Source: an uncultured bacterium
Lineage (GTDB): Bacteria; Omnitrophota; Omnitrophia; Omnitrophales; Abzuiibacteriaceae
Reading direction: 5' to 3'
Assembly (NCBI GenBank): GCA_964387845.1
Contig: CAYLXA010000013.1
Span: 1 to 64,000, forward strand
DNA length: 64,000 bases
The stretch's first letter is position 1; the number at the start of each line of letters is the position of its first letter. Below, in pieces: positions 2,480 to 60,692 of this stretch. The notes below the pieces were generated by a model. It was not told the DNA's origin. It saw nothing but the letters and a program-made list of their open reading frames with translations, and searched no databases. Made by a program: the position numbers and the translations under genes.

Positions 2480-2487
2480 AAAATGAC

Positions 2488-2515
2488 TTGCAATGCATTT
2501 GGCGTTATGTATACT
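2488..2515 (+). promoter_or_regulatory. sigma70-like promoter TTGCAA-16-TATACT upstream of polA
   Basis: -35 TTGCAA at 2488-2493, -10 TATACT at 2510-2515, 16-bp spacer, about 130 nt upstream of the polA start. Confidence 0.4.
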
Positions 2516-2644
2516 TTACCTAATTGCGATTGATCCACACGATCATCCCCACAATTGATAAATTCCCTGAGAAATAAAAATAAATAAGCAGTTGTACTTA
2601 ATAAATCCTAAGCACTAAATCCGAAATCGTTCAATCCTTAATTC

Positions 2645-5332: not shown

Positions 5333-5922
5333 TGGCGAAGCGTATTTTGCTGGGCTTGACCGGGACTTTCGGAAGCGGAAAAAGTACGGTTGCGAAGATT
5401 TTAAATTCGAAAGGCGCAAAAGTAATCGATTGTGACCGGTTGGCGCACGAAGTTTTTGACAGGCGGAAAGCGCCCAAGATTTATAGAAAACTTCAAAGGC
5501 TCTTTGATTTAGAAAAACTCGACCGGCGCGAAGTTGCAAAAGTGGTTTTTAAAAACCGTTCGAAGCGTAAGAAGCTTGAATCAATCGTTCATCCGTATGT
5601 GAAAAAACGGATTTTTGATTCATTAAAGCGCATGATGCGCGGCTTGGTCGTCATTGAAGTGCCGCTATTATTTGAAAGCGGATTTAACAAGTGGATGGAT
5701 TTTACGGCCACGGTTTCGGCATCAGAAAAAGTGATGCTGAAAAGGTTTAAAAAGCGCGGTATTCCGGCATCGGCTGTGAAGCCAAGATGGAAATCGCAGC
5801 TGCCGCTTAAAGAAAAAGAAAAGCGTTCTGATTTTATTATTGTTAATTCAGGAAACATCAAGCAGTTAAGAAAACAAGCAGTTTCGCTTTATCAGAAGTT
5901 GCAATTAAAACTGGAATCATAA
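5332..5922 (+). CDS. coaE: dephospho-CoA kinase
   Basis: P-loop LGLTGTFGSGKST at the N-terminus and a CoaE-like length (196 aa). The start overlaps the polA stop (TAATG). Confidence 0.85.
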   Translation: MAKRILLGLTGTFGSGKSTVAKILNSKGAKVIDCDRLAHEVFDRRKAPKIYRKLQRLFDLEKLDRREVAKVVFKNRSKRKKLESIVHPYVKKRIFDSLKRMMRGLVVIEVPLLFESGFNKWMDFTATVSASEKVMLKRFKKRGIPASAVKPRWKSQLPLKEKEKRSDFIIVNSGNIKQLRKQAVSLYQKLQLKLES

Positions 5923-5946
5923 TGATTCAAAAGGAGAATTAAGAAA

Positions 5947-7389
<1,443 letters not shown>

Positions 7390-48800: not shown

Positions 48801-51800
48801 GGCTGCGAAATACTGACAGTCGATATAGATATTGTTGTTGTGCTGAATCGCCGCAAAATCTGTGTAGTTGAAGTAAGCTGCGCAATAAGCCGGCGCCGCT
48901 TCTTTTTTGTAAACGATGTTGTTTAAGAACTGAATGTTGGGGGCGCTTGACGGACTTGCCTCTGCGCCGATGAGGACCACGTAACTATCGTATCCGTTGC
49001 CGATCAGTAAATTGTTATAGAATCGGCCGTTTTCTTGGACGTTGTCCAAAGACAAAGCTTTTCCGATCGATGCGTCTACCACGTTATTAAAGAATTCAAT
49101 GTTGGAACCTATGCCGCCGACCGTGCCGTTGATGTAATTGTTGTAATAGCGGCTGTTACGGTTGAGTTGAAGTGCGCCCGAAAGGCCGGCGTTGATCGTT
49201 ATGTTGTTCGAAAATAAATTGCCAGCAGCATGTCCATAAATCACATGGCCGTATCGGTCATAGGTGTATTGCCAAGGATCTGATATTTCTGAAAGGCATA
49301 TCTCAACAGGATAGCTGGAGTCGTCGGCAATGACGAGAGGCCCGATATTTTCAAATCGGTTGTTCTGATAAGTAAAATAGTTATCAATTGTCGGGTGGGG
49401 CGTTAGATCCGCGATACCCATGCTATTAAGGCTTCTGAGAGTACTGTCATAAACTTCGATATATTGACCGGGATTTCCGCCGGGCAGCGGGTTCATTTTA
49501 ATACCTTCCTCGCCATGCTGAATGGTTAAGCCGATGAAACGGATGTAGGATGCTGACGTGTAAAACCGGTTTTGTCCGGGAAAGTAAAACGAATGTTCTG
49601 ACGGGTTGGTCCCGGACGGGAGGCGAATGTATAAGCGCCCACTTGTGCAATCGATAAAATAAGCGTTGAATGAAGTATTGGAATTCGGGATTGTTAATAC
49701 ATCAAGCATATCTTGATGACGGAGCATGCGGCTGAAGGGCCGTTCAAGATCCATGATTATGCCTCTCGGATAATTTCCTTCACCGCCGTTTGCGTTAGGA
49801 TCGTATGTTCCAAGCGATGTATCAGTCCACCAGATTGAATAATTGCCCGCGTTTTCTGAAAATGTCCAGTTTGAAGGAATGCTTGCTCCCGAATCAATGA
49901 CCGGTGTTTCGCCGGGATAGTTTCGAATGGTTACCCACTGATTCGGCGCTCCGCCGCGATCCATAAGGTTGTAGGATCCAAACGGCTGTGTTCCACCGCG
50001 GATGTAAACCGTATCTCCAGGATTGAGCTGATCAAACGTTGCGCTTACATTGCAAATCGGCTGGGCAAGAGATCCGGGGCCGCTGTTGCTGCACGCCGGA
50101 TTATTTGCATCAACTACGTAGTAATTTCCCGCGCAATCGTTTGAACAATCAAAATGGCTTTCACGCCGGAGATCACAGTAACCGTCACCGCAAGTCCCGG
50201 CGCAATCCTGCGAGCAGGTTTGAACCGTCTCTGGCGCTTCACAAATACCGTCGCCGCAAAGTGCGGTAGTGGTAACCGAAAAAGACGCTTCAATGGTGTG
50301 GGTTGTTTGTACGTTGTTAAACGTATAACTGGAAATAGCGCCTTGCGAAACGCTGTCGACGAGCACATCCGTAATTTCGTAACCGATATTGGGCGTGATT
50401 GTAAATATTTGATCGCTGCCTTCGGCAACATTGACCGTGCCGTTCGGTACAATGTAGCCGCCGTTATTTGCTGTTGCATTAATTGAATGTGAAGGGCCTT
50501 CTACTTGGCAGATTGAGCTGCAGCCGTCGCCGCTTGCCGTATTGCCGTCGTCGCAAGTTTCATTGCCGACGACTAAACCGTCACCGCAAATTGGATTACA
50601 TTCTGGGTTGCTGCCGGGATTTACAGTGTCAACGGAACAGGTCCAACCGGCCTCGTAATAAATCGTGTCTTGCATAATGGCCGAAATGTTTCCAACACTA
50701 TCAATCAATCTGGCAAACACTGTCCGTTCACCGCTCGGCCCGCTGGCAAGTTTCCAGCGCATGACGTTTTCATACGGAGTCGGGTCACTCCAAATTGTTC
50801 CGTTATTAGAAAATATTACGGATGTGATCGAGGATCCGCCTGAGTCAGAAACCGTTAAGTAGATATGCGAGTCTAACGAATAAGTAACCGCCGCGTCATT
50901 CTCAATCAGTATTGTTCCGCTCGGCGGTTCAAGATCAACGACAAACTGAACCACATTGGAATATTCGGTTGGGTTCCGCCCAAGTTGAAACGGCGGCACG
51001 GGCGGTGATTCCCATCCGCGCACGCGGGCGTGATAAGTATTTGAGGTGCTCAACGAAACAGGAACAAACGTATCGTTTGACCAAAGAGTCGTAACATTGG
51101 AAGCAAAATTAGGGTCGGTTGAAATTTTGATTTCGTAAGCATTTGAGCCCAGCGACGGAGTCCAAGCGAGATTAAAATCGCCGTCATTGGGCGTTGCGGG
51201 TTGCGCCAGAACAGGCTGGACGGCGGCTTGTGACGCAAAAGCCCCAATGTGGCAGCCTGTGCTTCCGGTTGGCGTGACGGAAACATTAAAACCGTTTTCG
51301 ATGACATTAAGGCACATGCCCGAGTGGCTTGCAGGACTGCCCGGTTGAAGATTGAAATCAGCGTTTGCGAGATCCACAAATTGCGGATCTGCTTGAATAT
51401 TTGAATCTGCCAGATTGAAGTTATTAAAATCAGCTACTGAGTAAAGCCCGCTCACCACGATTTGCCCGTTTCCGCCGCCATCTTTTAAAGCTCTAATAAC
51501 CGAAGTTTCGTGGGCCGGATTAGACGAGTAAATCAAATTATTTCGAATGTCATCGCCGTATCCGCCAAAATTCGTATCAACATATTCCAGCGGATCGTAA
51601 TGAAGCATTAGTAGCTCAGCATTGAAAGTATTGCCGAAAGAGACTGGTGAAACATAATCATGGTTGGCATCCATCAAAATATTGTTCCAGATGCGGACAT
51701 TATATATAGCATTCAGGGCGTCCGGAGGATTCCAGTTGAAATTGGCAGTATAAATTCCACGCGGCCCCGGACTGTGAATGGTATTGTTAAAGATGTATAC

Positions 51801-54800
51801 GTCCTGAATTAAATTTTGGTCAGCAACATTTGCAACGAGCGTGATTCCGGTAGAATCGTTAAATCCGTCATAAATAACGTTATTGTAAATGTAAAGTCGT
51901 TCTGTTTTTCCGGGCCCGATTTGAATTGCGCCGCCGCGGTGATTTGATTCTGAAGGGAATTGGTTGGTTCCAAAAAACGTGTTATTTCGAATAATCGTAT
52001 TTTGTGAAATGCCGGGATTTCCGTCAATTGAACCGATGCCGAATGAAGTGTGAAACCGATTTCGGAATGTATTATTCTCTATTAAAACATTTTCAGAATT
52101 CCGGAAACCGACAGTTCCATGTCCGCAATCACCGAACCAGCTGTTTTTAATAGTCGTATTTCTTGCATCATCGCCAACAATTCCGTCAACGCCGCCGCCG
52201 TTCATCAGAAGCAAGCTCGGGCTTGCCGTGCAATTTAAATTTAAATTGTCAATCTCTACTCCATCGGTATCGAGAACTTTAATTCCGTTTGCCCAAGGTT
52301 CCGCGTAACTTTGCTCCGGCGGCCAGCGGTGGCCAATGCCGATATCATCATTTCCGGTGAATGAAGTGACTGATATATTTTTGAGCTTGACGCCATTTGA
52401 CCGTTGAATGCCAAGCACGTAGGGTGCATACAATCTTCCGCCTGCGGTATCGATATGCCCAATGAAATTTAATGAATCAAAAGTAATGTCGTTTGCCAAA
52501 TAAGTTGTCAGCATATATATGCCGATATTGCTGCCTTGAGCCGTCATACTGCTGCCGTGTAAATTCACGGTTTCATTCGGATAGCCGCGAATCGTAATCG
52601 GGTTTGCCTCAGTTCCCGAACTTCGGATGACAATAAAATTGTTTGCATCAATGTAGGGGAGGAAGTAATCGCCGCCCCGAATGTAAACCGTATCGCCGAT
52701 ATTTAATTTTTCATAAGGAGACGTTTCACGAAGCGCTCTCGGCGTGCACCACGGCGTATTGGGATCGAGTGCTTGAGTTCTTGAGTAACTGTCCGAACAG
52801 TCACAATTATTTTGATCAATGAAAAGCATATTAGTTCCGTTCGCAAGCTCTTGCGGGTCGGAACTGCCGACCGTGCATCCGCCTTCGGATTGGCTTGTAT
52901 ATTCAAATGCGCCGGGCGCGCAACTTCCGCTTTCAGGACGCGGATTTCCGTCAAAATCCACCGCAACTTCCGGAAGACAAGGGACCGAGCCGATCGCAGG
53001 GCTGTCCTGCTGTAAATGAAAATCGCCGATACCAGCGTTTACGAAAAGCGGGTTGCCGTCTACGTTGTCTTCGGCGAATGACAGTGCATTAAATTCGTCG
53101 ATGGTGTAGTGATAACGCTGCGTGTTCCGATTGTTGGTGCTTTGGACCGGGTCTTCGGCAGGATTGAGTTCTTTGACCCAGTTATTTTCAAACACATTTC
53201 CATAGCCATTTTGGCCTTCAAAATCCCAGCCGCCCAGCCGGATTTCGCCGTGAATTTGTTCTCCTTCGCCCGTATAAGTTTGAATTCCGTAGAAAATATT
53301 ATTTTTGATTTGATTATTATTGGCCCAATTATTTTGGCCGAAAACGCCGTTATTGCCGACGCTCATGTTGGCGTAGCCTGTGTTGTAAACCGTGTTGTGA
53401 AAGATTTTATTGTTGTTGGCTTCAAAGAATCCGGTGCCGGGCCCGTTTTGATCCTGAGAATTGGCAATCGAAATTCCGTTTCCATTTAATGCGCCGTTGT
53501 AAATCACATTGTTATAAATCAGGTTGTCACTGGCCCCCAAAATCTGAATGCTGTTTGCGCGAAGCGTGGTCTCCGAAGGAATTGAATTGTAAGTATGAAA
53601 CGTGTTATTCCGGATGATGTTATCGTGAGAACCGACACCAACGGCGATATTGGTATGGAGCGTATTTGAAAAATCATTATTTTGCACCAAAACGTCATGC
53701 GTATTAAAACGAAGCACAAGTAGAATGTGGCCGCAGTCACGGAATGTATTGTTTTCGATTAAGCCGCCCGAGACATAATCCATCATGATGCCATCGCCGG
53801 AATAGCGGTTGTCCGGGTTAATTTGATCGTTAACTTGCATGCATCGGAAAAAACTATTCTTCACTGTGATGTTGCTTGCATTATCAAATTCGATGCCGTT
53901 GCCATAAGGTGCATTAGGAGCGCGATCGTCGTAGCCGATGTCATCGGTGCCTTTGAAGTCAACAACCGAAATGCTGTCAAATACAATATCGCTGCTTCCG
54001 CTGACAACCTCAATGACTCGCGGGCCATACAATTTTCCGTTTGGGTTACCAACATCCACGTTGCCGACAAAATGAAGATTTTCAAATGTGATGAAATGAA
54101 CGTCATTCAGAACAAATGTGCGTTCGAACGCTGTGTGCGCACCGCGGATGACTGCCGTTTCGCCGGGATATGAAGTGAATGTAATTCGGTTGCTATCGCT
54201 TGTGCCCGATGAATTGATTCTGACTGTGGTATCGACGATCGGATATTCACCGCCGCGAATATAAACGGTGTCGCCTGCGTTTAATTTGTGATTGGGCCGG
54301 TTTTCATGAAAGCCAAGAGGCGAACACCAGGGTGTATAAGGATCGCGTGCCGCATACCGGTCTCCAGCGTCGCTGCAGTTGCAATTATTTTTATCCACAA
54401 AGAGAACATTGGCGCCGTTGGCAAGCCCTTGCGGGTCAGAGCTTCCGGCTATGCAGCCTCCGAGCTCTGATGGGTGATTGTTGGGATCGTTGGGATTAAA
54501 TCCGCCTGCAAATTCTTCACCGTCTGAGTAGCCGTCACCGTCTGTGTCCGGATTATTAGGATCCGTGCCGTTTTGAAATTCCTGCAGATTGATAAATTGA
54601 TCATTGTCCGGGTCATCCGTGCCGTTTTGATTGAGATTGCCGAAGTGCAGCATTTCCCAAACGTCCGGCAAACCGTCTTGATCTGTATCTGAAGTGTCGT
54701 TGTAAACATACTCGAATGGACCGATGTCGCAGGCAGCGCCTTGCGGCCGGATATGGTTGTCAAAATCAAAATCTACTTCAGGAACACAGATTCCGGCATC

Positions 54801-56777
54801 CACTGCCGAGCTTTGCTCGGTTGGGTGAAAATCGTGATTCTGCGGATCGACAAATAAAGGCACGGTTCCGAGATTATCTACGATTGTTCCAGTCCCAAAA
54901 AGGTTATCCAGATTTTGAAGTGTGTAATCAAAGTGTATATACGGAGGATTGGAAGTTCCAAAATTTCGCGTAGACATCACAAATCCGCCCGGGTTGTCAG
55001 TCACCAGCAAATTATTTTTGATTTCATTTCCGTAACCCTGATTGGGTTCGAAGCCATAAATATCAAAGAAAATAGGACGGTTGAGATAATACGCATATGT
55101 CTGAGAGTAAGGTCCGTCGGCAGCTCCGCCGGTTTTAAGCTGGATGATATTGTTTTGCACTTTGTTGTCATGCACATAATTGGTATTTGGCAACAGGACG
55201 TCATTTATATCCGGACGATTATTAAACTCAATCGCTTTTACCATAGAGTTGTGCGTGGTTGCTGTCGGGTCGTCCATATAAATTAAATTATGATAAACCT
55301 GGTTCCGGTCGGAATTCGAATCGCCGTTTCCGATAAAAGTAATGCCGTGCAAGGAACGCCGCCTCGGCTCGTCAGCGTCGTAGTAAATGATGTTGTTGTG
55401 GATTTGGCTGTCGGAAGCCGAGAGCATTTCAATGGCATGGCCGCCTTGGTTTCCCGTGGTCGGGTACACATTCCAGTTGTAAATCAAATTATTTTTAATA
55501 GTCATTTGACTGCCGCCGAATGCAAAGCAGGTATGAAGTTCGTTATTACAGGAATTATTTTCAACCGTTATGTTGTCAGACCATCTAACCGTTAAGCTGA
55601 TATGTCCGCAATTTCCAAAAGTACTATTTTTTACGCTGCCACCGGATACGCGATTAAATTGAATCCCGTCGCCCGAGAAGCGAAAATCTTCGGTCGGGCG
55701 CTCAGAGTATTCAGAGCAGCTGACAGATGCATTCTCGATTTTAATATTAGAAACGTCATCAAATTGTATTGCACTCCCCCAAGTTTCATAGTCTTCCCCG
55801 GTTTTCCGCCACCTAAAGCCGTAACCGATGTCATTGAGGCTTTGAAAATTAAGAACGCTTGTATCTAAAATTTGAATATCTTGGGCTGGATTTCCAACAG
55901 TCCCGCTAATTCTCAACGGATTCGGCATGTAAAGTCTGCCTTCCGGCGTATCTTCATAGGCAATAAAATTAAGCCCCTTTAACGTAATGTAGCTGGCGTT
56001 ATTCAAGATCAGAATCCACGAATAATTATAAGAGCCGCCGCGTATGGTAACCGGCTCATAACCACTCGGTTCAGTTTGAGAGGGATATGCTTGGATCGTG
56101 ATCCGCTGCGCAGGCCCGGCGCCGGACGTATTAACGCTCGCATTATGTTCCGTATAGTCGCCGCGGCGAATGAAGACTGTATCGCCCGGATTCAATTTAT
56201 GGTTTGGCCTGTATTCGGTTAACCCGCGCAAACTACACCACGGTGTTGCGGGATTTAAGGCTTCCGGGCGTTCACGGTTATCGCGGCAATTACAATTGCT
56301 CTGATCGACAAACAGAACATTCAGCCCATTTGCCAAATTCAAAGGATCTGTATTGTTGTCACACTGACGAAGTGGAATACTGCTTGCGTTGGTCGGGCTA
56401 CTGCCTAATCTGATCTCGTCGTCATCATTGACGCCATCTCCGTCTGTGTCATATCCGATGTTTCCGTTGCCCACAGTTGGATTGGTATTAAAAGCAACTT
56501 CCCGAAAGTTGGGCACTCCGTCTCTATCCGGATCGTCGTATTGATCATAACTTGTGATATCGCCAAAGTATTGAATTTCCCAATCATCTGAAAGGCCATC
56601 AAAATCAGTGTCAATTTCACCGGCGGCAATTTGGGGAAGGGGAATGCCCATGAAGACGAGCGTGAAAATAATGATCAAAGAAACAAAATCAGAAAGAAAT
56701 TTGGAAACAACTTTCTTGAACTGCCGGGATTTTATTTTTTTTTTGTGTGATTTATCTGATTCGGAGCTTCGTCCCAT
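45891..56777 (-). CDS. giant (3628 aa) secreted/surface protein of repeated modules
   Basis: Uninterrupted 10.9-kb ORF with an N-terminal K-rich/hydrophobic signal. Four modules each begin ...LANG.N.LF.D..NC.C...PWC... GDTVYIRGG, followed by NN.I..N beta-helix-like turns. Modules: calcium-binding (thrombospondin type-3-like) DxDxDG repeats, four ~550-aa right-handed beta-helix (pectate-lyase-fold-like) domains, fibronectin-III-like stretches, two InlB B-repeat-like segments (YTFNNV..HTIEA.F), and about a dozen tandem ~38-aa Cys-rich repeats (CDDGN.CNGTETC). Confidence 0.85.
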   Translation of the reverse strand: MGRSSESDKSHKKKIKSRQFKKVVSKFLSDFVSLIIIFTLVFMGIPLPQIAAGEIDTDFDGLSDDWEIQYFGDITSYDQYDDPDRDGVPNFREVAFNTNPTVGNGNIGYDTDGDGVNDDDEIRLGSSPTNASSIPLRQCDNNTDPLNLANGLNVLFVDQSNCNCRDNRERPEALNPATPWCSLRGLTEYRPNHKLNPGDTVFIRRGDYTEHNASVNTSGAGPAQRITIQAYPSQTEPSGYEPVTIRGGSYNYSWILILNNASYITLKGLNFIAYEDTPEGRLYMPNPLRISGTVGNPAQDIQILDTSVLNFQSLNDIGYGFRWRKTGEDYETWGSAIQFDDVSNIKIENASVSCSEYSERPTEDFRFSGDGIQFNRVSGGSVKNSTFGNCGHISLTVRWSDNITVENNSCNNELHTCFAFGGSQMTIKNNLIYNWNVYPTTGNQGGHAIEMLSASDSQIHNNIIYYDADEPRRRSLHGITFIGNGDSNSDRNQVYHNLIYMDDPTATTHNSMVKAIEFNNRPDINDVLLPNTNYVHDNKVQNNIIQLKTGGAADGPYSQTYAYYLNRPIFFDIYGFEPNQGYGNEIKNNLLVTDNPGGFVMSTRNFGTSNPPYIHFDYTLQNLDNLFGTGTIVDNLGTVPLFVDPQNHDFHPTEQSSAVDAGICVPEVDFDFDNHIRPQGAACDIGPFEYVYNDTSDTDQDGLPDVWEMLHFGNLNQNGTDDPDNDQFINLQEFQNGTDPNNPDTDGDGYSDGEEFAGGFNPNDPNNHPSELGGCIAGSSDPQGLANGANVLFVDKNNCNCSDAGDRYAARDPYTPWCSPLGFHENRPNHKLNAGDTVYIRGGEYPIVDTTVRINSSGTSDSNRITFTSYPGETAVIRGAHTAFERTFVLNDVHFITFENLHFVGNVDVGNPNGKLYGPRVIEVVSGSSDIVFDSISVVDFKGTDDIGYDDRAPNAPYGNGIEFDNASNITVKNSFFRCMQVNDQINPDNRYSGDGIMMDYVSGGLIENNTFRDCGHILLVLRFNTHDVLVQNNDFSNTLHTNIAVGVGSHDNIIRNNTFHTYNSIPSETTLRANSIQILGASDNLIYNNVIYNGALNGNGISIANSQDQNGPGTGFFEANNNKIFHNTVYNTGYANMSVGNNGVFGQNNWANNNQIKNNIFYGIQTYTGEGEQIHGEIRLGGWDFEGQNGYGNVFENNWVKELNPAEDPVQSTNNRNTQRYHYTIDEFNALSFAEDNVDGNPLFVNAGIGDFHLQQDSPAIGSVPCLPEVAVDFDGNPRPESGSCAPGAFEYTSQSEGGCTVGSSDPQELANGTNMLFIDQNNCDCSDSYSRTQALDPNTPWCTPRALRETSPYEKLNIGDTVYIRGGDYFLPYIDANNFIVIRSSGTEANPITIRGYPNETVNLHGSSMTAQGSNIGIYMLTTYLANDITFDSLNFIGHIDTAGGRLYAPYVLGIQRSNGVKLKNISVTSFTGNDDIGIGHRWPPEQSYAEPWANGIKVLDTDGVEIDNLNLNCTASPSLLLMNGGGVDGIVGDDARNTTIKNSWFGDCGHGTVGFRNSENVLIENNTFRNRFHTSFGIGSIDGNPGISQNTIIRNNTFFGTNQFPSESNHRGGAIQIGPGKTERLYIYNNVIYDGFNDSTGITLVANVADQNLIQDVYIFNNTIHSPGPRGIYTANFNWNPPDALNAIYNVRIWNNILMDANHDYVSPVSFGNTFNAELLMLHYDPLEYVDTNFGGYGDDIRNNLIYSSNPAHETSVIRALKDGGGNGQIVVSGLYSVADFNNFNLADSNIQADPQFVDLANADFNLQPGSPASHSGMCLNVIENGFNVSVTPTGSTGCHIGAFASQAAVQPVLAQPATPNDGDFNLAWTPSLGSNAYEIKISTDPNFASNVTTLWSNDTFVPVSLSTSNTYHARVRGWESPPVPPFQLGRNPTEYSNVVQFVVDLEPPSGTILIENDAAVTYSLDSHIYLTVSDSGGSSITSVIFSNNGTIWSDPTPYENVMRWKLASGPSGERTVFARLIDSVGNISAIMQDTIYYEAGWTCSVDTVNPGSNPECNPICGDGLVVGNETCDDGNTASGDGCSSICQVEGPSHSINATANNGGYIVPNGTVNVAEGSDQIFTITPNIGYEITDVLVDSVSQGAISSYTFNNVQTTHTIEASFSVTTTALCGDGICEAPETVQTCSQDCAGTCGDGYCDLRRESHFDCSNDCAGNYYVVDANNPACSNSGPGSLAQPICNVSATFDQLNPGDTVYIRGGTQPFGSYNLMDRGGAPNQWVTIRNYPGETPVIDSGASIPSNWTFSENAGNYSIWWTDTSLGTYDPNANGGEGNYPRGIIMDLERPFSRMLRHQDMLDVLTIPNSNTSFNAYFIDCTSGRLYIRLPSGTNPSEHSFYFPGQNRFYTSASYIRFIGLTIQHGEEGIKMNPLPGGNPGQYIEVYDSTLRSLNSMGIADLTPHPTIDNYFTYQNNRFENIGPLVIADDSSYPVEICLSEISDPWQYTYDRYGHVIYGHAAGNLFSNNITINAGLSGALQLNRNSRYYNNYINGTVGGIGSNIEFFNNVVDASIGKALSLDNVQENGRFYNNLLIGNGYDSYVVLIGAEASPSSAPNIQFLNNIVYKKEAAPAYCAAYFNYTDFAAIQHNNNIYIDCQYFAAGGIEWSSPDPITNFNNWRSFLNGVDTYSSLQTATDVLMVNFSEAPSVNDYDLHSESAAIDAGFPMPNLHTDVRDRPRDAQTDIGPYEYQSTLQNENPTVDLGNDQTVAFGTSAIINGGVTDDGLPNPPGAVTVSWSQVTSSGGIATFNPPNNTSTSVTFSHPGSYQLRLTADDSMLTGSDDIMISVNFSAPPGVSANPPSPNLGAFNLEWDAVPGAAIYQVQLSPDPNFVQNIDERWPSGIFEPFVISQTGTYYARVQAWSQPPQDGGFGSGFSPAITIVVQACLTDANCSDNNTCNGTETCVSGSCQPGTPLACDDGNLCNGTETCDSVLGCQLGAPLNCGDADACNGIESCDPTLGCLSGVPLNCDDGIACTNDSCDSLSGCVHTTDNSVCSDGLFCTGAEICNAALGCQSNPAPCSGPNLICDETNDQCTGCLNDSDCDDSNACNGTETCQAGICTAGTSLVCDDGNICNGTETCDSALGCQSGIPLTCDDGNVCNGPESCDSTLGCQTGAPLVCDDGNPCTAEACDPATGCESTPVVDGMSCSDGLFCTGAEICIAGICQNGTEPCSDPDHCDEPNDQCFACISDSECGDGNLCNGAEACVNNTCQAGTPLVCDDANVCNGTETCDPGLGCQASAPLVCDDGVSCTNDSCDSVNGCANTPDDSICSDGLFCNGSETCNATAGCQSGTSACDTGEECDEANDMCICPEGAPCNPLAFTITASASEGGQISPVGDVVVNEGDNATFTITPDSRYEIQDVLVNSTSVGAVSSYTFNNVTSDHTIEATFAVIPESPATNGETQNPPDSNPDEGGPENGSPQETANPQNTGGYYTPGIVGVIVPYNNPSPGTQPAAASGSGNVPRQAASNTKANVSGAIATITGGLETLDESAVVQNEPISTAKSLIQSSTRVAPLQIGVASLQQLDKFNGEMIRLRGGPKPSGNPVKTFFEILFEILVEKAPTTISLSV

Positions 56778-57032: not shown

Positions 57033-57096
57033 TTCAATGGCTCCAAAGCAATTTTAACTGGATATTAATAGCAGTTTGAGTCATCAGGAGGTTGTT

Positions 57097-57621
57097 ATGT
57101 CAGTACAAGTAGGTTCACCCGCGCCCGATTTTAAAATGCAGGCCGTTGTGGATGGCGGAAAGTTCCAAGATGTAAAGTTGAGCGATTACAAAGGAAAATG
57201 GGTGGTGCTGTATTTTTATCCGCTCGATTTTACCTTTGTTTGCCCGACGGAAATCACGGCTTTTCGTGAAAAATTGGAAGAGTTTAAAAAGTTAAATACT
57301 GTCATTGTTGGAGCCAGTATTGACAGCGTTTATTCGCACAAAGCTTGGATCGAGCAGCAGCTCAAGGATTTACACTATCCTTTGGCAAGCGATCTTTCAA
57401 AGGATGTTTCACGTCGCTATGGAATTCTCTTGGAAGAAAAGGGAATTACACTTCGCGGAACTTTCATCATCGATCCGAACGGTATTTTGAAATGGCAGCT
57501 TGTCAACGATCTCGGAATCGGACGCAATGTGGATGAGGTTTTGAGAGTGCTCCAAGCGCTTCAGACCGGCGAGCTTTGCCAGGCCAACTGGAAGCCGGGC
57601 CAAAAGACCTTAGGCAAATAA
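57097..57621 (+). CDS. 2-Cys peroxiredoxin (AhpC/Prx1 family)
   Basis: FTFVCPTEI peroxidatic-Cys motif and a resolving Cys near the C-terminus. The internal ATG with an AGGAGG RBS is preferred over the ORF-track start. Confidence 0.88.
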   Translation: MSVQVGSPAPDFKMQAVVDGGKFQDVKLSDYKGKWVVLYFYPLDFTFVCPTEITAFREKLEEFKKLNTVIVGASIDSVYSHKAWIEQQLKDLHYPLASDLSKDVSRRYGILLEEKGITLRGTFIIDPNGILKWQLVNDLGIGRNVDEVLRVLQALQTGELCQANWKPGQKTLGK

Positions 57622-57646
57622 ACTAGTTCAGATTTTAAAAAAATAG

Positions 57647-57680
57647 CCCACGCAAAGAAAAAGCGTGGGTTATTTTTTTG
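57647..57680 (+). terminator. rho-independent terminator after the peroxiredoxin gene
   Basis: cccacgc / gcgtggg stem followed by TTATTTTTTT. Confidence 0.7.
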
Positions 57681-57766
57681 TGTCCTTTTGCTACATTTTT
57701 AGGTGTAGTTTAAGGAAAAACCAGATCAAAATTCGCCGTAAAAATCTTTTATTCACTTGCCAATTT

Positions 57767-57805: not shown

Positions 57806-58249
57806 ATGATTAAAGTAGCCAGAACAAGAAAACCAAAGAAACAGCACGTCGAAGCGGTTGCGGCGTTAATCCGCAACGAAAAGGACGGTTCTTTCTTTAT
57901 TACCCAGCGGCACTTGGATGATTTTTTAGGGGGGCTTTGGGAATTTCCGGGCGGAAAGCGCCGCCGCGGTGAAAGCTTTGAGCAAGCACTTCGCCGGGAA
58001 GTCAAAGAAGAAACTGACTTGATCATTGAAGTGGGCGCCCGTCACCGCGCGTCGTCATTCGAATATCCTGACCGTGTTGTAAATCTTTATTTCTATTGGG
58101 CTCGTGTTTTAAAGGGAAAGCCCAGAGCGATTGGCTGCCGCGATTTTAAGTGGGTCCAGCCTGCCGAACTTCTCAATTATACGTTCCCGCCGGCAGATGC
58201 CGAGTTGATTTTGGAACTTTCCAAGCCGACTGAGCTATTCTGCAACTAA
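57806..58249 (+). CDS. NUDIX hydrolase (MutT-like)
   Basis: Nudix box GG.WEFPGGKRRRGESFEQALRREVKEETDL. Internal start with a GAGGAAACC RBS is preferred. Confidence 0.8.
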   Translation: MIKVARTRKPKKQHVEAVAALIRNEKDGSFFITQRHLDDFLGGLWEFPGGKRRRGESFEQALRREVKEETDLIIEVGARHRASSFEYPDRVVNLYFYWARVLKGKPRAIGCRDFKWVQPAELLNYTFPPADAELILELSKPTELFCN

Positions 58250-58258
58250 GCTAGTACT

Positions 58259-58342
58259 GTCATTGCGAGATACGTTATTTGGTATCGAAGCAATCTCGGT
58301 ACTTAGATTGCTTCGGCACTGCACAACGCGCCTCGCAATGAC
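58259..58342. repeat. 85-bp palindromic element with ATTGCGAG terminal inverted repeats, copy A (5' of the membrane-protein gene)
   Basis: tGTCATTGCGAG ... CTCGCAATGAC terminal inverted repeats and an internal 12-bp hairpin cgaagcaatctc / gagattgcttcg. Confidence 0.65.
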
Positions 58343-58412
58343 GACTTGACCTTCCTTAGCAATTTGACGATAATCAATTCATCGATTTTTTGATAACCAG
58401 GAGGAGGAAAAT

Positions 58413-59042
58413 ATGGCGTTGTCCGATCTTTATAGCAATTTTCATTTGTTTTTCAGATGGCTTCACGTATTTGTCGGTATTATTTGGATCGGCCATCTGT
58501 ATTTTTTCAATTTTGTGAACGTCCCGCTTCAAGCCTCACTAGATGATGCCGGCAAGAAAGTCGTCAACCCAAAACTGATGCCGCGCGCACTTTGGTGGTT
58601 CCGCTGGGGCGCCATGCTCACGTTTATTTCCGGGTTGATTCTTTATACGATGATTTACATGTATACGCCGGGAGCCGGATTTGGCCCTTCATCCGCGTTT
58701 CGTGATCTTTTCGGTAATATTACGGGTAGATCAATTTGGATTTTAATCGGAATGTTATTTGGCACGATTATGTGGTTCAACGTGTGGTTTATTATTTGGC
58801 CTGCTCAGAAAGCTCTTTTATCCGGAAAAGTTCCGGCCGATCAAGCCGCCGGCGTTCGCCGCAGAGCCTATTTGGCGTCACGTACAAATACCTATCTGTC
58901 GGGCCCCATGCTTTATGGTATGTTGGCTCCGGGGCATTACGGCGCGTTTAGCTGGGTGACGTTTTTGGTGTTTGGTTTGGTGGCGGTGGCCTTGATTTTC
59001 CACGCCATTCAGAAATCCCCCAAAGTCGGTACGTCAGTTTGA
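58413..59042 (+). CDS. conserved polytopic membrane protein of unknown function (weak resemblance to the COG3748 / PuuD N-terminal membrane domain)
   Basis: 209 aa with 4-5 TM helices and the motif RWLHVFVGIIWIGHLYFFNF. AGGAGG RBS. Confidence 0.55.
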   Translation: MALSDLYSNFHLFFRWLHVFVGIIWIGHLYFFNFVNVPLQASLDDAGKKVVNPKLMPRALWWFRWGAMLTFISGLILYTMIYMYTPGAGFGPSSAFRDLFGNITGRSIWILIGMLFGTIMWFNVWFIIWPAQKALLSGKVPADQAAGVRRRAYLASRTNTYLSGPMLYGMLAPGHYGAFSWVTFLVFGLVAVALIFHAIQKSPKVGTSV

Positions 59043-59048
59043 TCTAAT

Positions 59049-59133
59049 CGTTATTGCGAGGCGCCTTAATCAGCGTCGCGGCAATCCCTGTTCTGAGATT
59101 GCTTCGGCGTTAATCAACGCGCCTCGCAATGAC
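59049..59133. repeat. 85-bp palindromic element with ATTGCGAG terminal inverted repeats, copy B (3' of the membrane-protein gene)
   Basis: ATTGCGAGGCGC ... GCGCCTCGCAATGAC. The 3' half is nearly identical to copy A (gattgcttcggc...caacgcgcctcgcaatgac). Confidence 0.65.
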
Positions 59134-59154: not shown

Positions 59155-59412
59155 TTATTCTAATTCCTGCAAAAACGAATTCCGGCTTTTCAAATCGACA
59201 AACACAACCTGGTCTGGATAATTTAACCCCGCTTCACTGACAAATACTGTGGTGCCGTTGATCTGAAACGCCATTACCTCGCAACCCTCGATGGGAAGTT
59301 TGTTCCCGCCCCCTATGATTTTATCGACAATTTCCTGGCTTACGGCTTTGGCTTTTTGGCCGCGCGCGTCGAGGTAATTCACCAGGATTGTCTTTAGGTC
59401 TTGGATTGTCAT
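59155..59412 (-). CDS. hypothetical 85-aa protein (candidate target of the adjacent LacI-family regulator)
   Basis: ORF with a GGAGAAAAGAGG RBS. A LacI-type palindrome lies 29 bp upstream of its ATG. Confidence 0.5.
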   Translation of the reverse strand: MTIQDLKTILVNYLDARGQKAKAVSQEIVDKIIGGGNKLPIEGCEVMAFQINGTTVFVSEAGLNYPDQVVFVDLKSRNSFLQELE

Positions 59413-59472: not shown

Positions 59473-60489
59473 TCAATCCGATTTTCTTATAACCAATTCC
59501 GGATCAAATTTGGTTTGAACAGGAGCTTTTACCTTATTTGTCACTAAGTTAATTAGAGTTTCGCATGCAGTGCGTCCCATGGTTTCGAGTGGTTGGCGCA
59601 CGGAAGTAAGCGGCGGCGTGAACGTTTCGTTTTTAGGCGAGTCATCAAAGCCGGCGATGGCTACATCATCCGGGATGCGAAGCCTCGCTTCTTTGATAGC
59701 ACGGACAGCTCCCCGTGCCAAATCATCATTGGCGCAGAAAATCGCGCGCGGCAGTTTCTTATTTTTAATCCAATTTGCAGTTACGACAAAACCATCTTGT
59801 TCGTCAAACCGGGCCGCTTGCGGTAAAAATTCATCACGAAGCTTAAATTTTAGATTTCTTGAAGCGGATTTAAATGCTTTGAATCGGGCTCTTGCGTCCA
59901 GGGAAATATACTCCGGCCCTCTGAGCATCCCGATGGTTCGGTAACCCCGCCTGATGAATCGTGAACAGATGGCTTCGACTCCGCTTTGATTACTGCAGTA
60001 AACGATACTGGATTTAACGCTAGGCTCATAGTCATTAATGAGCACGACGGGAAGTTTTGAATGAGTTTCGATTTCCCGGATTAATTTTGGGAAGAGGCGC
60101 CAGGTCAAAAAAATGATGCCATCAACAGCGTGTTTCTGCAGAAGGTCTTTGAGGTTGCATTGTTCAATTTCAGCATCGCGGATCATGATCCATTTCAAAT
60201 CATATGTGCAAGCGTACATTCCTGTGATGATTCCCGAAATAAGGCCTTCATAGTAATTGCTTTTCACAAGATCGGTTGAAAATGGCGTCACCATGCCGAC
60301 CGTGTTGGTGGTTTGCTTGCTCAGCGCGCGCGCAGATTGACTGGGAATGTAATTGAGTTTACGAATTACTTTTTCAATTTGTTTTTGCGTTTCGGAGTGC
60401 ACAAGGTGCTTTTTGTCGGGATCCATGTAGCGGGATATGCTTGCTACCGAAACTCCCGCTTGCTTTGCCACATCTCTGATTGTTGCCAT
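59473..60489 (-). CDS. LacI-family transcriptional regulator
   Basis: N-terminal HTH MATIRDVAKQAGVSVASISRY and a periplasmic-binding-protein-like effector domain. Internal start with an AAAGGAG RBS is preferred. Confidence 0.85.
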   Translation of the reverse strand: MATIRDVAKQAGVSVASISRYMDPDKKHLVHSETQKQIEKVIRKLNYIPSQSARALSKQTTNTVGMVTPFSTDLVKSNYYEGLISGIITGMYACTYDLKWIMIRDAEIEQCNLKDLLQKHAVDGIIFLTWRLFPKLIREIETHSKLPVVLINDYEPSVKSSIVYCSNQSGVEAICSRFIRRGYRTIGMLRGPEYISLDARARFKAFKSASRNLKFKLRDEFLPQAARFDEQDGFVVTANWIKNKKLPRAIFCANDDLARGAVRAIKEARLRIPDDVAIAGFDDSPKNETFTPPLTSVRQPLETMGRTACETLINLVTNKVKAPVQTKFDPELVIRKSD

Positions 60490-60502
60490 AAAGCTCCTTT
60501 TT

Positions 60503-60516
60503 TGTAACCGGTTACA
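60503..60516. promoter_or_regulatory. LacI-family operator palindrome TGTAACCGGTTACA (site 2, upstream of the regulator gene itself)
   Basis: Identical 14-bp palindrome 14-27 nt upstream of the lacI-family ATG, implying autoregulation. Confidence 0.6.
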
Positions 60517-60692
60517 TTGGAAAGGTAGCACAGCTTTGCCCTTTGTCAAGGTGCCGATTTATGAGTGCGCCGCGTTTTTGAAAAACAGGTTGGCCGGTCG
60601 ATATATTCGGCCGGATTGTCGGATATGCGGGAGATGTATTTTTTAAGTTTATCGAGATAAGCCTATAACTGACTATATTAGTCGGAATTTGG

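What the first reader, a model, noticed from the sequence alone, without database searches (positions are those of the whole stretch)
58259..59133. Membrane-protein gene bracketed by two copies of an 85-bp element with ATTGCGAG terminal inverted repeats
Copy A (58259-58342) lies in the 5' leader and copy B (59049-59133) starts 6 nt after the stop of the 209-aa membrane-protein gene. They are in direct orientation relative to each other. Each has GTCATTGCGAG...CTCGCAATGAC terminal inverted repeats and a shared 3' half (GATTGCTTCGGC-n8-CAACGCGCCTCGCAATGAC). Copy A has an additional perfect 12-bp internal hairpin. This looks like a MITE or REP-type element inserted on both sides of one gene. Alternatively it is a pair of cis-acting RNA structures in the 5' and 3' UTRs of one mRNA (stability or circularisation), or the footprint of a mobilised gene cassette.
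Basis: seen in the sequence. Interest (0 to 1): 0.5.

Follow-up and report, generated by a model that had tools for sequence, protein, structure and literature searches.

The report
REP-type palindromic repeats flanking a gene
The two 84-nt hairpin elements are real but ordinary: each is a head-to-head pair of REP-type palindromic units from a very large family found in many bacterial phyla, placed just after stop codons, and they are not a gene-specific regulatory pair or a gene cassette.

Summary
Both elements exist as described (58259-58342 and 59050-59133). Each is a near-complete hairpin, and they are the only copies in the 64-kb window.

They are not specific to this gene. The genomes include Alpha-, Gamma- and Deltaproteobacteria, Bacteroidota, Chloroflexi, Planctomycetota, Cyanobacteria and Patescibacteria.

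Each element is a dimer of two inverted units: (C/T)GTC head, 5-bp ATTGC/GCAAT stem, purine internal loop, variable distal hairpin, short tail. This matches the published "CGTC-tagged REP" superfamily in head, basal stem (as in CGTC-3), CCA tail, tags-outside dimers, position next to ORF 3' ends, and lack of an associated transposase. It differs in stem and loop dimensions. There is no target-site duplication, so it is not a classical MITE.

Copy A lies upstream of a conserved promoter, so it follows the NUDIX gene and is not in the membrane gene's leader. Orthologous loci show presence/absence. Copy B is shared with a relative and is better conserved (84.5%) than synonymous sites (53-59%).

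Most likely these are dispersed REP dimers that now act as 3'-end hairpins. Interest is low to moderate.

The parts
58259..58342 (.). Copy A: head-to-head dimer of two REP-type units, 9 nt after the NUDIX stop codon and 3 nt before the -35 box of the next gene
   Evidence: Flanking bases are T (58258) and G (58343), so the tags read TGTC and CGTC.
58259..58296 (+). Unit A5: GTC head, ATTGC/GCAAT basal stem, GA/GAA internal loop, GATAC/GTATC distal stem, 8-nt loop
   Evidence: same fold with RNA and DNA parameters; HMM E 7e-5
58297..58304 (.). Central spacer of copy A (CGGTACTT)
   Evidence: inverted repeat I2
58305..58342 (-). Unit A3, read on the minus strand: same architecture, distal stem GGCGC/GTGCC. 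It is the unit most similar to B3 (33 of 38).
   Evidence: (E 3e-8)
59050..59133 (.). Copy B: head-to-head dimer between the convergent membrane-protein gene and the 85-aa ORF. It starts 7 nt after the first stop codon and ends 21 nt from the second.
   Evidence: The orthologous copy in L128 is 71 of 84 identical with no indel.
59050..59086 (+). Unit B5 (head GTT, one mismatch): distal stem GGCGC/GCGTC, 8-nt loop
   Evidence: (E 5.7e-5)
59097..59133 (-). Unit B3, read on the minus strand: distal stem GGCG/CGCC, 10-nt loop
   Evidence: (E 2.2e-8)
57806..58249 (+). NUDIX hydrolase gene. Copy A follows its stop codon.
   Evidence: PF00293, 1.4e-19; gene call
58346..58374 (+). Promoter-like site TTGACC-17-GATAAT of the membrane-protein gene, downstream of copy A and conserved in all orthologous loci
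   Evidence: 10 of 12 matches; alignable TTGAC(G/C)-17-(G)ATAAT in L123, L125, L128, L250, L252; a weaker TTGCGT version in L127
58413..59042 (+). 209-aa membrane protein with a Urate_ox_N (PuuD-like) domain. It is the bracketed gene and is not part of the element.
   Evidence: PF06181, 1.8e-22; 7864 homologues, one named urate hydroxylase PuuD from Candidatus Omnitrophica
59155..59412 (-). Conserved 85-aa ORF convergent on copy B
   Evidence: Identity to L128 by codon position is 92%, 96% and 59%. No Pfam family.

Best explanation
Each element is a head-to-head (tags outside) dimer of two REP-type palindromic units. It belongs to a very widespread family that fits the published "CGTC-tagged REP" superfamily and is closest to CGTC-3.

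**Unit anatomy.** A unit is (C/T)GTC, then ATTGC, GA, a variable distal hairpin, GAA, GCAAT, and a 3-nt tail. In the family at large the distal hairpin is usually the DNA mini-hairpin GC-GNA-GC.

**Shown:**
- The family is dispersed across many phyla.
- It inserts without target-site duplication.
- It prefers the space just after stop codons in co-directional and convergent intergenic regions.
- It has no polarity relative to transcription and no recurrent neighbouring gene.
- The unit hairpin is maintained by compensatory changes, and mismatch types point to folding of the unit strand as a single strand.

**Inferred:**
- Spread occurs through a single-stranded-DNA hairpin intermediate handled in trans by an unidentified enzyme, by analogy with REP/RAYT and IS200/IS605.
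- At this locus the elements were acquired before the split from the L128 lineage.
- They now serve, if anything, as stable 3'-end hairpins. Copy A closes the NUDIX transcript ahead of the next promoter. Copy B sits between two convergent genes that have no canonical terminator.
- Copy B is under purifying selection. Copy A is decaying in the relative.
For: **Breadth**
- A sub-pattern also reaches the limit in metagenomes.

**Anatomy**
- 471 units were parsed from 259 distinct elements. The tail is CCA in 251.
- The base before GTC is C in 64% and T in 31%.
- GNA triloops occur in 206 of 471 units.
- There are 64 different distal stems with at least 3 Watson-Crick pairs.
- G.T plus A.G mismatches outnumber A.C plus C.T by 26 to 7, p=0.0013.
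- All four window units fold to the same shape.

**Match to the literature (PMC3733652)**
- CGTC or TGTC tag, stems starting AT, CCA tails, mostly tags-outside dimers, close to ORF 3' ends, no transposase.
- Published CGTC-3 encodes VIAGLDPAIH. By my back-translation this is GTCATTGCCGGGCTTGACCCGGCAATCCAT, which has the same head, basal stem and tail.
- CGTC-1- and CGTC-3-type units co-occur in the same loci.

**Context**
- Family members fall 113 co-directional, 40 convergent and 15 divergent, against 700, 195 and 223 for background intergenic regions, p=0.0013.

**Mobility and age**
- Neither site holds an ATTGCGAG-type element in L123, L125, L127, L250, L251 or L252. L128 has a half copy A and a full copy B.

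**Constraint**
- Copy B is 71 of 84 identical to L128, against 53-59% at third codon positions and 58-68% in other intergenic regions.
- No hairpin-plus-T-run terminator is predicted beside either element.
Against: - The published definition (continuous 8-9-bp stem, 4-5-nt loop) is not met. I could not see the paper's Figure 2, so I cannot say whether this exact sequence type was catalogued.
- The window copies have 8-10-nt distal loops, not GNA triloops, and their tails are CTC, CTA, CCC and CTC rather than CCA.
- No mobilising enzyme is known or found, so the single-stranded-DNA mechanism is an analogy.
- No transcript data exist, so the 3'-end hairpin role is inferred from position and conservation only.
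- Part of copy B's conservation could come from family-level homogenisation of the boxes. Outside the boxes identity is 33 of 44, p=0.03.
- The gene-context statistics rest on crude ORF calling. 71 apparent "intragenic" cases are probably mostly ORF over-extension.
Confidence: 0.75

Rival explanations
1. The elements are selfish or neutral relics only. They are REP-type insertions with no role at this locus, and their position after stop codons simply marks where insertions are tolerated.
For: - Copy A has lost its 5' unit in L128, and what remains is only 65% identical, near the intergenic baseline.
- Close relatives function without either element.
- In other lineages the same intergenic regions hold unrelated palindromes.
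Against: - Copy B is 84.5% identical to its orthologue with no indel, while flanking intergenic DNA and synonymous sites are at 53-68%.
- The four differences that fall at paired positions of copy B's distal stems are all transitions that keep a Watson-Crick or G.T pair. This is my reading of the alignment against the folds.
- Neither convergent gene has another terminator.
Confidence: 0.3
2. They are classical MITEs: deletion derivatives of a DDE-type insertion sequence, moved by cut-and-paste through their 11-bp terminal inverted repeats.
For: Perfect 11-bp terminal inverted repeats, small size, many copies, and presence/absence among relatives.
Against: - Direct repeats flanking 259 elements are at the chance level for k=3-8, and the two window copies have none.
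- The conserved parts are internal hairpin units with an unpaired tag, not just the termini.
- No transposase recurs within 2.5 kb in 120 genome loci.
- Single units occur alone (L127, L250).
Confidence: 0.04
3. They are a matched pair of cis-acting RNA structures in the 5' and 3' UTRs of the membrane-protein mRNA, acting in stability, circularisation or regulation.
For: Both are strong hairpins on the sense strand and bracket one gene. Two elements in adjacent intergenic regions of a 64-kb window is mildly unexpected.
Against: - Copy A lies upstream of the conserved -35/-10 promoter.
- Orthologues at 80-93% protein identity lack the ATTGCGAG-type element at both sites.
- The same element flanks unrelated genes in many phyla and shows no orientation bias to transcription.
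- No Rfam family matches.
Confidence: 0.04
4. They are the footprint of a mobilised gene cassette, with integron attC-like or composite boundaries around the membrane-protein gene.
For: Imperfect palindromes of attC-like length lie on both sides of a single gene.
Against: - The termini do not carry the attC core sites RYYYAAC/GTTRRRY (direct reading).
- No integrase or cassette array is seen in the ORFs and Pfam-scanned genes around the elements.
- The gene keeps the same neighbours in relatives without the elements.
- The two elements have different evolutionary fates.
Confidence: 0.02

Closest known systems
CGTC-tagged REPs, especially family CGTC-3 of Rhodopseudomonas/Bradyrhizobium (Di Nocera, De Gregorio & Rocco 2013, BMC Genomics 14:522; PMC3733652)
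   Same: - Unpaired (C/T)GTC tag.
- Stem beginning AT. CGTC-3 has the identical ATTGC...GCAAT base of the stem. This is back-translated from the published peptide VIAGLDPAIH and also seen directly in L147, L121 and L070.
- CCA tail in 251 of 471 units.
- Predominantly tags-outside (HH) dimers.
- Location within tens of nt of ORF 3' ends in co-directional and convergent spacers.
- No associated transposase.
   Different: - The stem is not a continuous 8-9 bp with a 4-5-nt loop. It is a 5-bp basal stem, a GA/GAA purine internal loop, and a variable distal hairpin. The distal hairpin is usually GC-GNA-GC; in the window copies it is 4-5 bp with an 8-10-nt loop.
- The host range seen here (Omnitrophota-like, Patescibacteria, Chloroflexi, Planctomycetota, Cyanobacteria) goes beyond the five phyla listed for CGTC repeats in the paper.
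- I could not verify whether this sequence type appears in the paper's figures.
REPINs, the inverted REP doublets mobilised by RAYT (TnpA_REP) tyrosine HUH transposases in Pseudomonas and E. coli
   Same: Two inverted REP units form one long hairpin. They are non-autonomous, lack target duplication, are extragenic, show presence/absence between relatives, and the single-strand hairpin plus a short unpaired tag is the conserved module.
   Different: The tag is CGTC, not GT[AG]G. No RAYT or other Y1 gene was found flanked by these units, and the literature reports none for CGTC repeats. The termini are nearly identical across phyla, whereas REPINs are usually lineage-specific.
Neisseria dRS3 and Rickettsia RPE-6/RPE-4 (CGTC-1 and CGTC-4 in the 2013 classification)
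   Same: GTCATT head, AAT-CC end, short hairpin unit, dispersed in intergenic DNA. CGTC-1-type units (TGTCATTCCCGCGAAAGCGGGAATCCA) occur in the same loci as the present family.
   Different: The basal stem is ATTCC/GGAAT instead of ATTGC/GCAAT, and the stem is fully Watson-Crick. Rickettsial copies are often inside genes.
E. coli REP/BIME elements as 3'-UTR hairpins (established knowledge, cited from memory: mRNA protection from 3' exonucleases, partial termination, and reduced translation when within about 15 nt of a stop codon)
   Same: Stable hairpins sit 7-9 nt after stop codons, between co-directional or convergent genes, without a U-tract.
   Different: The sequences are unrelated. No functional data exist for the present family or host.

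Membership tests
CGTC-tagged REP superfamily (PMC3733652) | Unpaired terminal tag CGTC (TGTC or CCTC allowed) at one end of the unit | tested here: met
   The window units read TGTC (A5), CGTC (A3), CGTT (B5, one mismatch) and TGTC (B3). Across 259 family members the base before GTC is C in 64% and T in 31%.
CGTC-tagged REP superfamily (PMC3733652) | Stem whose first two positions are complementary A/T residues | tested here: met
   The basal stem is ATTGC/GCAAT in all four window units, identical to the base of the CGTC-3 stem.
CGTC-tagged REP superfamily (PMC3733652) | Continuous stem of 8-9 bp and loop of 4-5 nt | tested here: not met
   Units have a 5-bp basal stem, a 2x3 purine internal loop, and a 4-5-bp distal stem with an 8-10-nt loop in the window. 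In the wider family the distal part is a 2-bp stem with a GNA triloop.
CGTC-tagged REP superfamily (PMC3733652) | Short unpaired 3-nt tail, consensus CCA | tested here: inconclusive
   The family tail is CCA in 251 of 471 units and CTC in 106. The window units have CTC, CTA, CCC and CTC.
CGTC-tagged REP superfamily (PMC3733652) | Predominantly HH dimers (tags outside) able to fold into one large stem-loop | tested here: met
   Both window elements have tags outside, with spacers of 8 and 10 nt and long-hairpin folds. Most family elements are heterodimers: arms are identical in only 26 of 222.
CGTC-tagged REP superfamily (PMC3733652) | Located mainly between co-directional or convergent ORFs, close to the 3' end of the upstream ORF | tested here: met
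   In the window, copy A is 9 nt after the NUDIX stop and copy B is 7 nt and 21 nt from two convergent stops. In the family, divergent spacers are depleted (15 of 168 against 223 of 1118, p=0.0013). The median distance is 32 nt to the upstream stop and 75 nt to the downstream start.
CGTC-tagged REP superfamily (PMC3733652) | No dedicated transposase gene flanked by the repeats | tested here: met
   No protein family recurs near the elements in 120 genome loci. The largest clusters are ABC transporter, SDR, acyl-CoA dehydrogenase and CarA.
REPIN/RAYT system | GT[AG]G tetranucleotide at the foot of the REP hairpin | tested here: not met
   The tag is (C/T)GTC.
REPIN/RAYT system | A cognate RAYT (Y1 HUH) gene flanked by the same REPs in the same genome | not testable with these tools
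   Only 64 kb of the source genome is available. No such gene appeared near family members elsewhere, but a single-copy gene would rarely be sampled.
MITE (DDE-transposon derivative) | Target-site duplication flanking the terminal inverted repeats | tested here: not met
   Direct repeats of 3-8 nt at the flanks are at chance: 3 against 2.9 for k=3 and 1 against 0.9 for k=4. The window flanks are ...GTACT|A|GACTT... and ...TAATC|B|AGTTC....
MITE (DDE-transposon derivative) | A full-length IS with the same termini | tested here: inconclusive
   None was seen in about 2 Mb of fetched loci, but no dedicated long-range search was possible.
Intrinsic (Rho-independent) terminator | G+C-rich hairpin immediately followed by a T/U run | tested here: not met
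   The scan finds no terminator-like site at or beside either element. The sequence after A is GACTTGACC and after B is AGTTCAATTTATAC. Orthologues without the element do carry hairpin-plus-T-run terminators (L125, L127, L250).
Integron attC site / gene cassette | Core sites RYYYAAC ... GTTRRRY, cassette arrays, nearby integrase | tested here: not met
   The termini are GTCATTGC...GCAATGAC. The gene is syntenic in relatives that lack the elements. No integrase is seen in the ORFs and Pfam-scanned genes around the elements.
Any curated RNA family (Rfam 15) | Covariance-model match | tested here: not met
   At E up to 10 the only overlaps with the elements are chance miRNA hits of about 18 bits. 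There are no gathering-level hits in 14 loci carrying family members.

The most novel reading that the evidence does not exclude
The ATTGC-type CGTC elements may form one still-active mobile family shared by more than ten bacterial phyla, including Patescibacteria and Omnitrophota. They would move as folded single-stranded DNA and be recognised through the CGTC tag, the ATTGC stem and the GNA mini-hairpin. The mobiliser would be an enzyme nobody has identified: either an unlinked HUH/Y1 class or a universal host replication or repair activity. Individual copies such as copy B would then be exapted as conserved 3'-end structures.
Probability: 0.2. Interest if true: 0.6.

Novelty: new member of a known kind. 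Interest (0 to 1): 0.3.

Why it matters
For this locus, it means the bracketing of the membrane-protein gene should not be read as a regulatory pair or a mobile cassette. Annotators should mask these elements as repeats. One short-read contig (L002) ends inside copy B, as expected at a repeat.

For the field, the survey adds three points:
- A sequence type with near-invariant termini in many phyla belongs with the CGTC-tagged REPs.
- Its units carry a DNA-specific signature, the extraordinarily stable GCGNAGC mini-hairpin, together with strand-asymmetric mismatches.
- It still has no visible mobilising gene.

These points sharpen, but do not solve, the open question raised in 2013 of how CGTC repeats spread.

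Tried and rejected
- **Literature string searches.** Searches for the termini and internal boxes returned only chance primer matches. The RepRanger paper does not mention this sequence.
- **Supplements of PMC3733652.** They list no peptide that this family would encode (EAKQS, SLAMT, LRGA, HCE). I therefore could not show that the exact type had been catalogued.
- **Rfam.** Nothing relevant. The STnc240, Thr-leader and rli22 hits at 57.6 kb are just a bidirectional terminator.
- **Search for an associated gene.** Clustering all ORFs within 2.5 kb of elements gave big clusters in IMG/VR. These reflect related prophage or GTA-like contigs, not an association. In genome loci only housekeeping families appeared.
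- **Polarity test.** For unequal-armed dimers, orientation versus transcription was 30 to 35, so there is no bias.
- **Exact empty site.** Comparing orthologues gave none, because the intergenic DNA has turned over. Insertion junctions could not be defined.
- **P0002.** The contig for this 86%-identical protein could not be fetched.
- **Covariance model.** I considered building one but judged it unnecessary after the unit HMM scan and the explicit list of covarying distal stems.
- **NUDIX codon comparison.** The comparison with L128 was out of register and is not used.
Full report
**1. The observation**

The region contains two 84-nt elements, A (58259-58342) and B (59050-59133). They are 75% identical in direct register and 72% in inverted register.

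Each is an imperfect palindrome:
- A has 38-nt arms, 76% complementary, around an 8-nt centre.
- B has 37-nt arms, 78% complementary, around a 10-nt centre.

As single strands they fold into long hairpins. The + strand gives -41 and -49 kcal/mol as RNA, the - strand gives -47.7 and -49.1, z is about -7 to -9, and no shuffle folds as well.

The pattern TTGCGAG-N40-70-CTCGCAA occurs twice in the window against 0.03 expected. The 11-mer terminus with at most one mismatch occurs only at these four ends. A profile of single units built exclusively from other genomes finds exactly four units in the 64 kb, and they are these two elements.

Minor corrections:
- B's left end is GTTATTGCGAG.
- The variable stretch of the shared right half is 6 nt.
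- Orientation is defined mainly by the right-hand units, which match at 33 of 38 positions.

**2. Surroundings**

| Feature | Coordinates | Strand | Source |
|---|---|---|---|
| AhpC-type peroxiredoxin | 57076-57621 | + | |
| NUDIX hydrolase | 57806-58249 | + | |
| Copy A | 58259-58342 | | |
| 209-aa Urate_ox_N/PuuD-like membrane protein | 58413-59042 | + | |
| Copy B | 59050-59133 | | |
| Conserved 85-aa ORF | 59155-59412 | - | |
| LacI-type regulator | 59473-60549 | - | |

Homologues of the membrane protein are numerous. One is named from Candidatus Omnitrophica, so the source is probably an Omnitrophota-like bacterium from a metagenome.

A sigma-70-like promoter, TTGACC (58346-58351), 17 nt, GATAAT (58369-58374), lies immediately downstream of copy A. 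An alignable TTGAC(G/C)-17-(G)ATAAT is present at the corresponding place in L123, L125, L128, L250 and L252, with a weaker TTGCGT version in L127. In all of these it lies downstream of whatever repeat fills the spacer.

Copy A is therefore not in the membrane gene's leader. It lies 9 nt after the NUDIX stop codon. Copy B lies 7 nt after the membrane gene's stop and 21 nt from the stop of the convergent ORF. No hairpin-plus-T-run terminator is predicted beside either element.

**3. Orthologous loci**

| Locus | Protein identity | Site A (NUDIX to membrane gene) | Site B (downstream of membrane gene) |
|---|---|---|---|
| L128 | 79%, same synteny | Only the right-hand unit remains | Full orthologous copy |
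| L125, L127 | 83%, 80% | Spacer of 57-61 nt, with the -35 box (TTGACG in L125, weaker TTGCGT in L127) starting within about 10 nt of the stop | Ordinary hairpin-plus-T-run terminators |
| L250 | 80% | 107-nt spacer, -35 box 5 nt after the stop, no element | Ordinary hairpin-plus-T-run terminator |
| L123 | 93% | No element | No element |
| L251, L252 | 80%, 78% | Other palindromic repeats; L251 has a CGTC-1-like one | No ATTGCGAG element |

The elements are thus insertions that are variably present, old enough to be shared by the window and L128, and located in spacers that attract palindromic repeats in several lineages.

Between the window and L128:
- Copy B is 71 of 84 identical with no indel.
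- Third codon positions of four flanking genes are 53-59% identical.
- Other intergenic regions are 58-68% identical.
- P is 1e-6 against 60% and 5e-4 against 68%.
- Outside the family-wide boxes identity is 33 of 44 (p=0.03).
- The remnant of copy A is at 65%, near baseline.

The four differences that fall at paired positions of copy B's distal stems are all transitions that keep a Watson-Crick or G.T pair. This is my reading of the alignment against the folds.

**4. The family**

The exact termini GTCATTGCGAG ... The reference hits are titled Bradyrhizobium, Sphingomonas, Micavibrio, Rickettsiales, Gamma- and Deltaproteobacteria, Mucilaginibacter, Pedobacter, Flavobacterium, Chloroflexi/Anaerolineae/Dehalococcoidia, Planctomycetota, Microcoleus, Patescibacteria/Berkelbacteria and others. 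By my estimate, chance expectation for 22 fixed bases in 596 Gb is about one. A narrower unit pattern also hit the limit in metagenomes.

*Unit anatomy*

From 259 distinct elements I parsed 471 units:
- The base before GTC is C in 64% and T in 31%.
- The unit begins ATTGC and ends GCAAT.
- The 3-nt tail is CCA in 251 units and CTC in 106.
- The stretch between is most often GA-GCGNAGC-GAA with N any base: GAGCGAAGCGAA 53 times, GAGCGCAGCGAA 45, GAGCGTAGCGAA 19, GAGCGGAGCGAA 12. An 18-nt version, GAG-GA-GC-loop-GC-GAC-GAA, is also common.
- GNA triloops account for 206 of 471 units.

*Evidence that the unit hairpin is selected*

- Where the distal part is longer it is a hairpin of arbitrary sequence. 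There are 64 different stems with at least 3 contiguous Watson-Crick pairs, such as GGGAC/GTCCC, GCCAGTG/CACTGGC, GCCAATT/AATTGGC and GATAC/GTATC.
- At least 2 closing pairs occur in 277 of 471 units, against about 41 in shuffles. The unit-level hairpin is therefore maintained by compensatory change.
- Isolated mismatches in these stems are G.T (14) and A.G (12) far more often than their opposite-strand equivalents A.C (5) and C.T (2). The total is 26 against 7, p=0.0013. This indicates that the strand reading GTCATTGC... is the one that folds as a single strand.
- d(GCGNAGC) is the "mini-hairpin DNA", Tm 76.5 C as DNA. The RNA versions are much less stable; r(GCGAAAGC) has Tm 39 C. SSB binds it poorly, and it is found at single-strand replication initiation sites (PMC13037366). 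This points to single-stranded DNA rather than RNA as the selected form. That is an inference.

*Dimer organisation and dispersal*

- Most elements are heterodimers. Arms are identical in 26 of 222, and the commonest combination is a 12-nt arm with an 18-nt arm.
- The orientation of the longer unit shows no bias relative to flanking gene direction: 30 against 35.
- There is no target-site duplication. Instead the flanks often extend the palindrome.
- Elements are depleted in divergent spacers and lie nearer the upstream stop than the downstream start. The ORF calling was crude, and the 71 "intragenic" cases are mostly suspect.
- No protein family recurs next to the elements in 120 genome loci.

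*The window units*

All four fold alike with RNA or DNA parameters: 3-nt head, ATTGC/GCAAT, GA/GAA internal loop, 4-5-bp distal stem (GATAC/GTATC, GGCGC/GTGCC, GGCGC/GCGTC, GGCG/CGCC) and an 8-10-nt loop. This is a lineage variant. Other Omnitrophota-like loci carry GAA-triloop versions, such as GACCC-GAA-GGGTC in L127. A related unit, GGCG-CTTTGATTTT-CGCC, sits on another contig of the L128 metagenome.

**5. Comparison with what is known**

Di Nocera et al. 2013 (PMC3733652) defined "CGTC-tagged REPs":
- an unpaired CGTC tag (often TGTC);
- stems of 8-9 bp starting with A/T;
- loops of 4-5 nt;
- tails of consensus CCA;
- mostly HH dimers with tags outside;
- position close to ORF 3' ends in co-directional and convergent spacers;
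- no dedicated transposase.

Their supplement gives CGTC-3 peptides VIAGLDPAIH. By my back-translation this corresponds to GTCATTGCCGGGCTTGACCCGGCAATCCAT. That has the same head, the same ATTGC/GCAAT base of the stem and the same tail as the present family. Such units, and CGTC-1-type units, occur in the same loci as the present family.

The family therefore fits the superfamily in tag, stem base, tail, dimer type, genomic position and lack of a transposase. It differs in stem and loop architecture. I could not see the paper's Figure 2. The sequence strings are absent from the searchable literature and from the supplements. Whether this exact type was catalogued remains open.

It is not a GTAG/RAYT REPIN (wrong tag). 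It is not a MITE in the strict sense (no target duplication). It is not an intrinsic terminator (no T-run), not an attC site, and not in Rfam.

**6. Mechanism**

| Status | Statement |
|---|---|
| Shown | Dispersed, duplication-free, tag-plus-hairpin units whose own strand is under selection to fold. They are placed after stop codons and variably present among relatives. One copy (B) is under constraint. |
| Inferred | Spread goes through single-stranded-DNA hairpins processed in trans by an unknown enzyme, by analogy with REP/RAYT and IS200/IS605. |
| Inferred | Once fixed, the transcribed hairpins act at the 3' ends of the upstream genes. Copy A closes the NUDIX transcript just before the next promoter. 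Copy B serves both convergent genes, which have no other terminator. This parallels what is established for E. coli REPs (mRNA protection, partial termination, and translation effects when within about 15 nt of a stop; cited from memory). |

The main rival for the local part is that they are merely tolerated relics. Copy A's decay in L128 fits that. Copy B's conservation argues against it.

**7. Verdict**

The REP-type reading is supported. The MITE, UTR-pair and cassette readings are not. This is a new member, in an Omnitrophota-like genome, of a known kind of element. The family-level features are worth noting, namely the cross-phylum invariance, the mini-hairpin DNA signature and the missing mobiliser, but they were not the finding itself. 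Interest is 0.3.

Noticed in passing
window 45891-56777 (- strand): A giant 3628-aa ORF with repeated beta-helix/Pel9A-like domains, DUF4215 and long Cys-rich repeat stretches. A 3181-aa counterpart occupies the same position in L128.
   Followed up: no
window 57618-57701: The sub-threshold Rfam hits here (STnc240, Thr leader, rli22) on both strands are a single hairpin with A-run and T-run flanks (AATAGCCCACGC...GCGTGGGTTATTTTTTT). This looks like a bidirectional intrinsic terminator between AhpC and NUDIX, not an sRNA.
   Followed up: partly
window 59155-59412 (- strand); L128 10732-10989; L123 2611-2868: An 85-aa ORF without any Pfam family is strongly conserved. Identity between the window and L128 is 92% and 96% at codon positions 1 and 2, and 59% at position 3. 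It looks like a real gene of unknown function.
   Followed up: partly
L123 956-1149; L250 1315-1424; L127 10631-10741; L252 10631-10740: Other palindromic repeats fill the orthologous spacers. Examples are GGGGACAG...CTGTCCCC followed by a T-run, and TTGTAGGGGCG...CGTCCCTACA. These spacers appear to turn over between different hairpin repeats and terminators.
   Followed up: no
L251 3786-4000: The same NUDIX-to-membrane-gene spacer holds a different, CGTC-1-like palindrome in another lineage. Its ends are TGTCATCCCCGAA... and ...GCGGGAATGACA. This suggests the site is a hot spot for this superfamily.
   Followed up: partly
L325 11065-11217: A cluster of several GTCAT-headed units with different basal stems lies directly after a stop codon: GTCATCCTGA..., TGTCATCCTGAGCGTAGCGAAGGATC, the ATTGC type, and TGTCATTCCCGCG.... 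The GA-GCGNAGC-GAA module is shared between the ATCCT and ATTGC types, which hints at a wider superfamily.
   Followed up: partly
L002 (1068-nt Logan contig), end of contig: This short-read contig carrying the same gene stops 46 nt after the stop codon, inside copy B. An assembly break at that point is what a genomic repeat would produce.
   Followed up: no
L165 about 1908-3271; L166 about 5903-7124; L196: Family members lie directly next to carA (carbamoyl-phosphate synthase small chain) in a Planctomycetota and a Deltaproteobacteria genome. A homologous ORF also lies within about 2 kb of an element in a Sphingobacterium genome. This is probably coincidence.
   Followed up: no
L098 3052-3440; L118 5333-5517; L055 10722-10986: Some contigs carry tandem arrays of elements. 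L098 has three copies about 156 nt apart with repeated flanks, so clustered amplification occurs as well as dispersed single insertions.
   Followed up: no
IMG/VR loci such as L011, L012, L015, L025, L027, L032, L039: Many "viral" contigs carrying the element share homologous gene sets. They are probably related prophage or gene-transfer-agent-like regions of Alphaproteobacteria, with the element at recurring positions.
   Followed up: partly
L123 about 280-320, between the promoter and the start codon of the 93%-identical orthologue: The stretch GTTGCGAGGGTTTGTCTTGGGCTTGTCGAAGGATTATC resembles a degenerate single unit (ATTGCGAG...CGAAGCAATC) inside the 5' leader.
   Followed up: no
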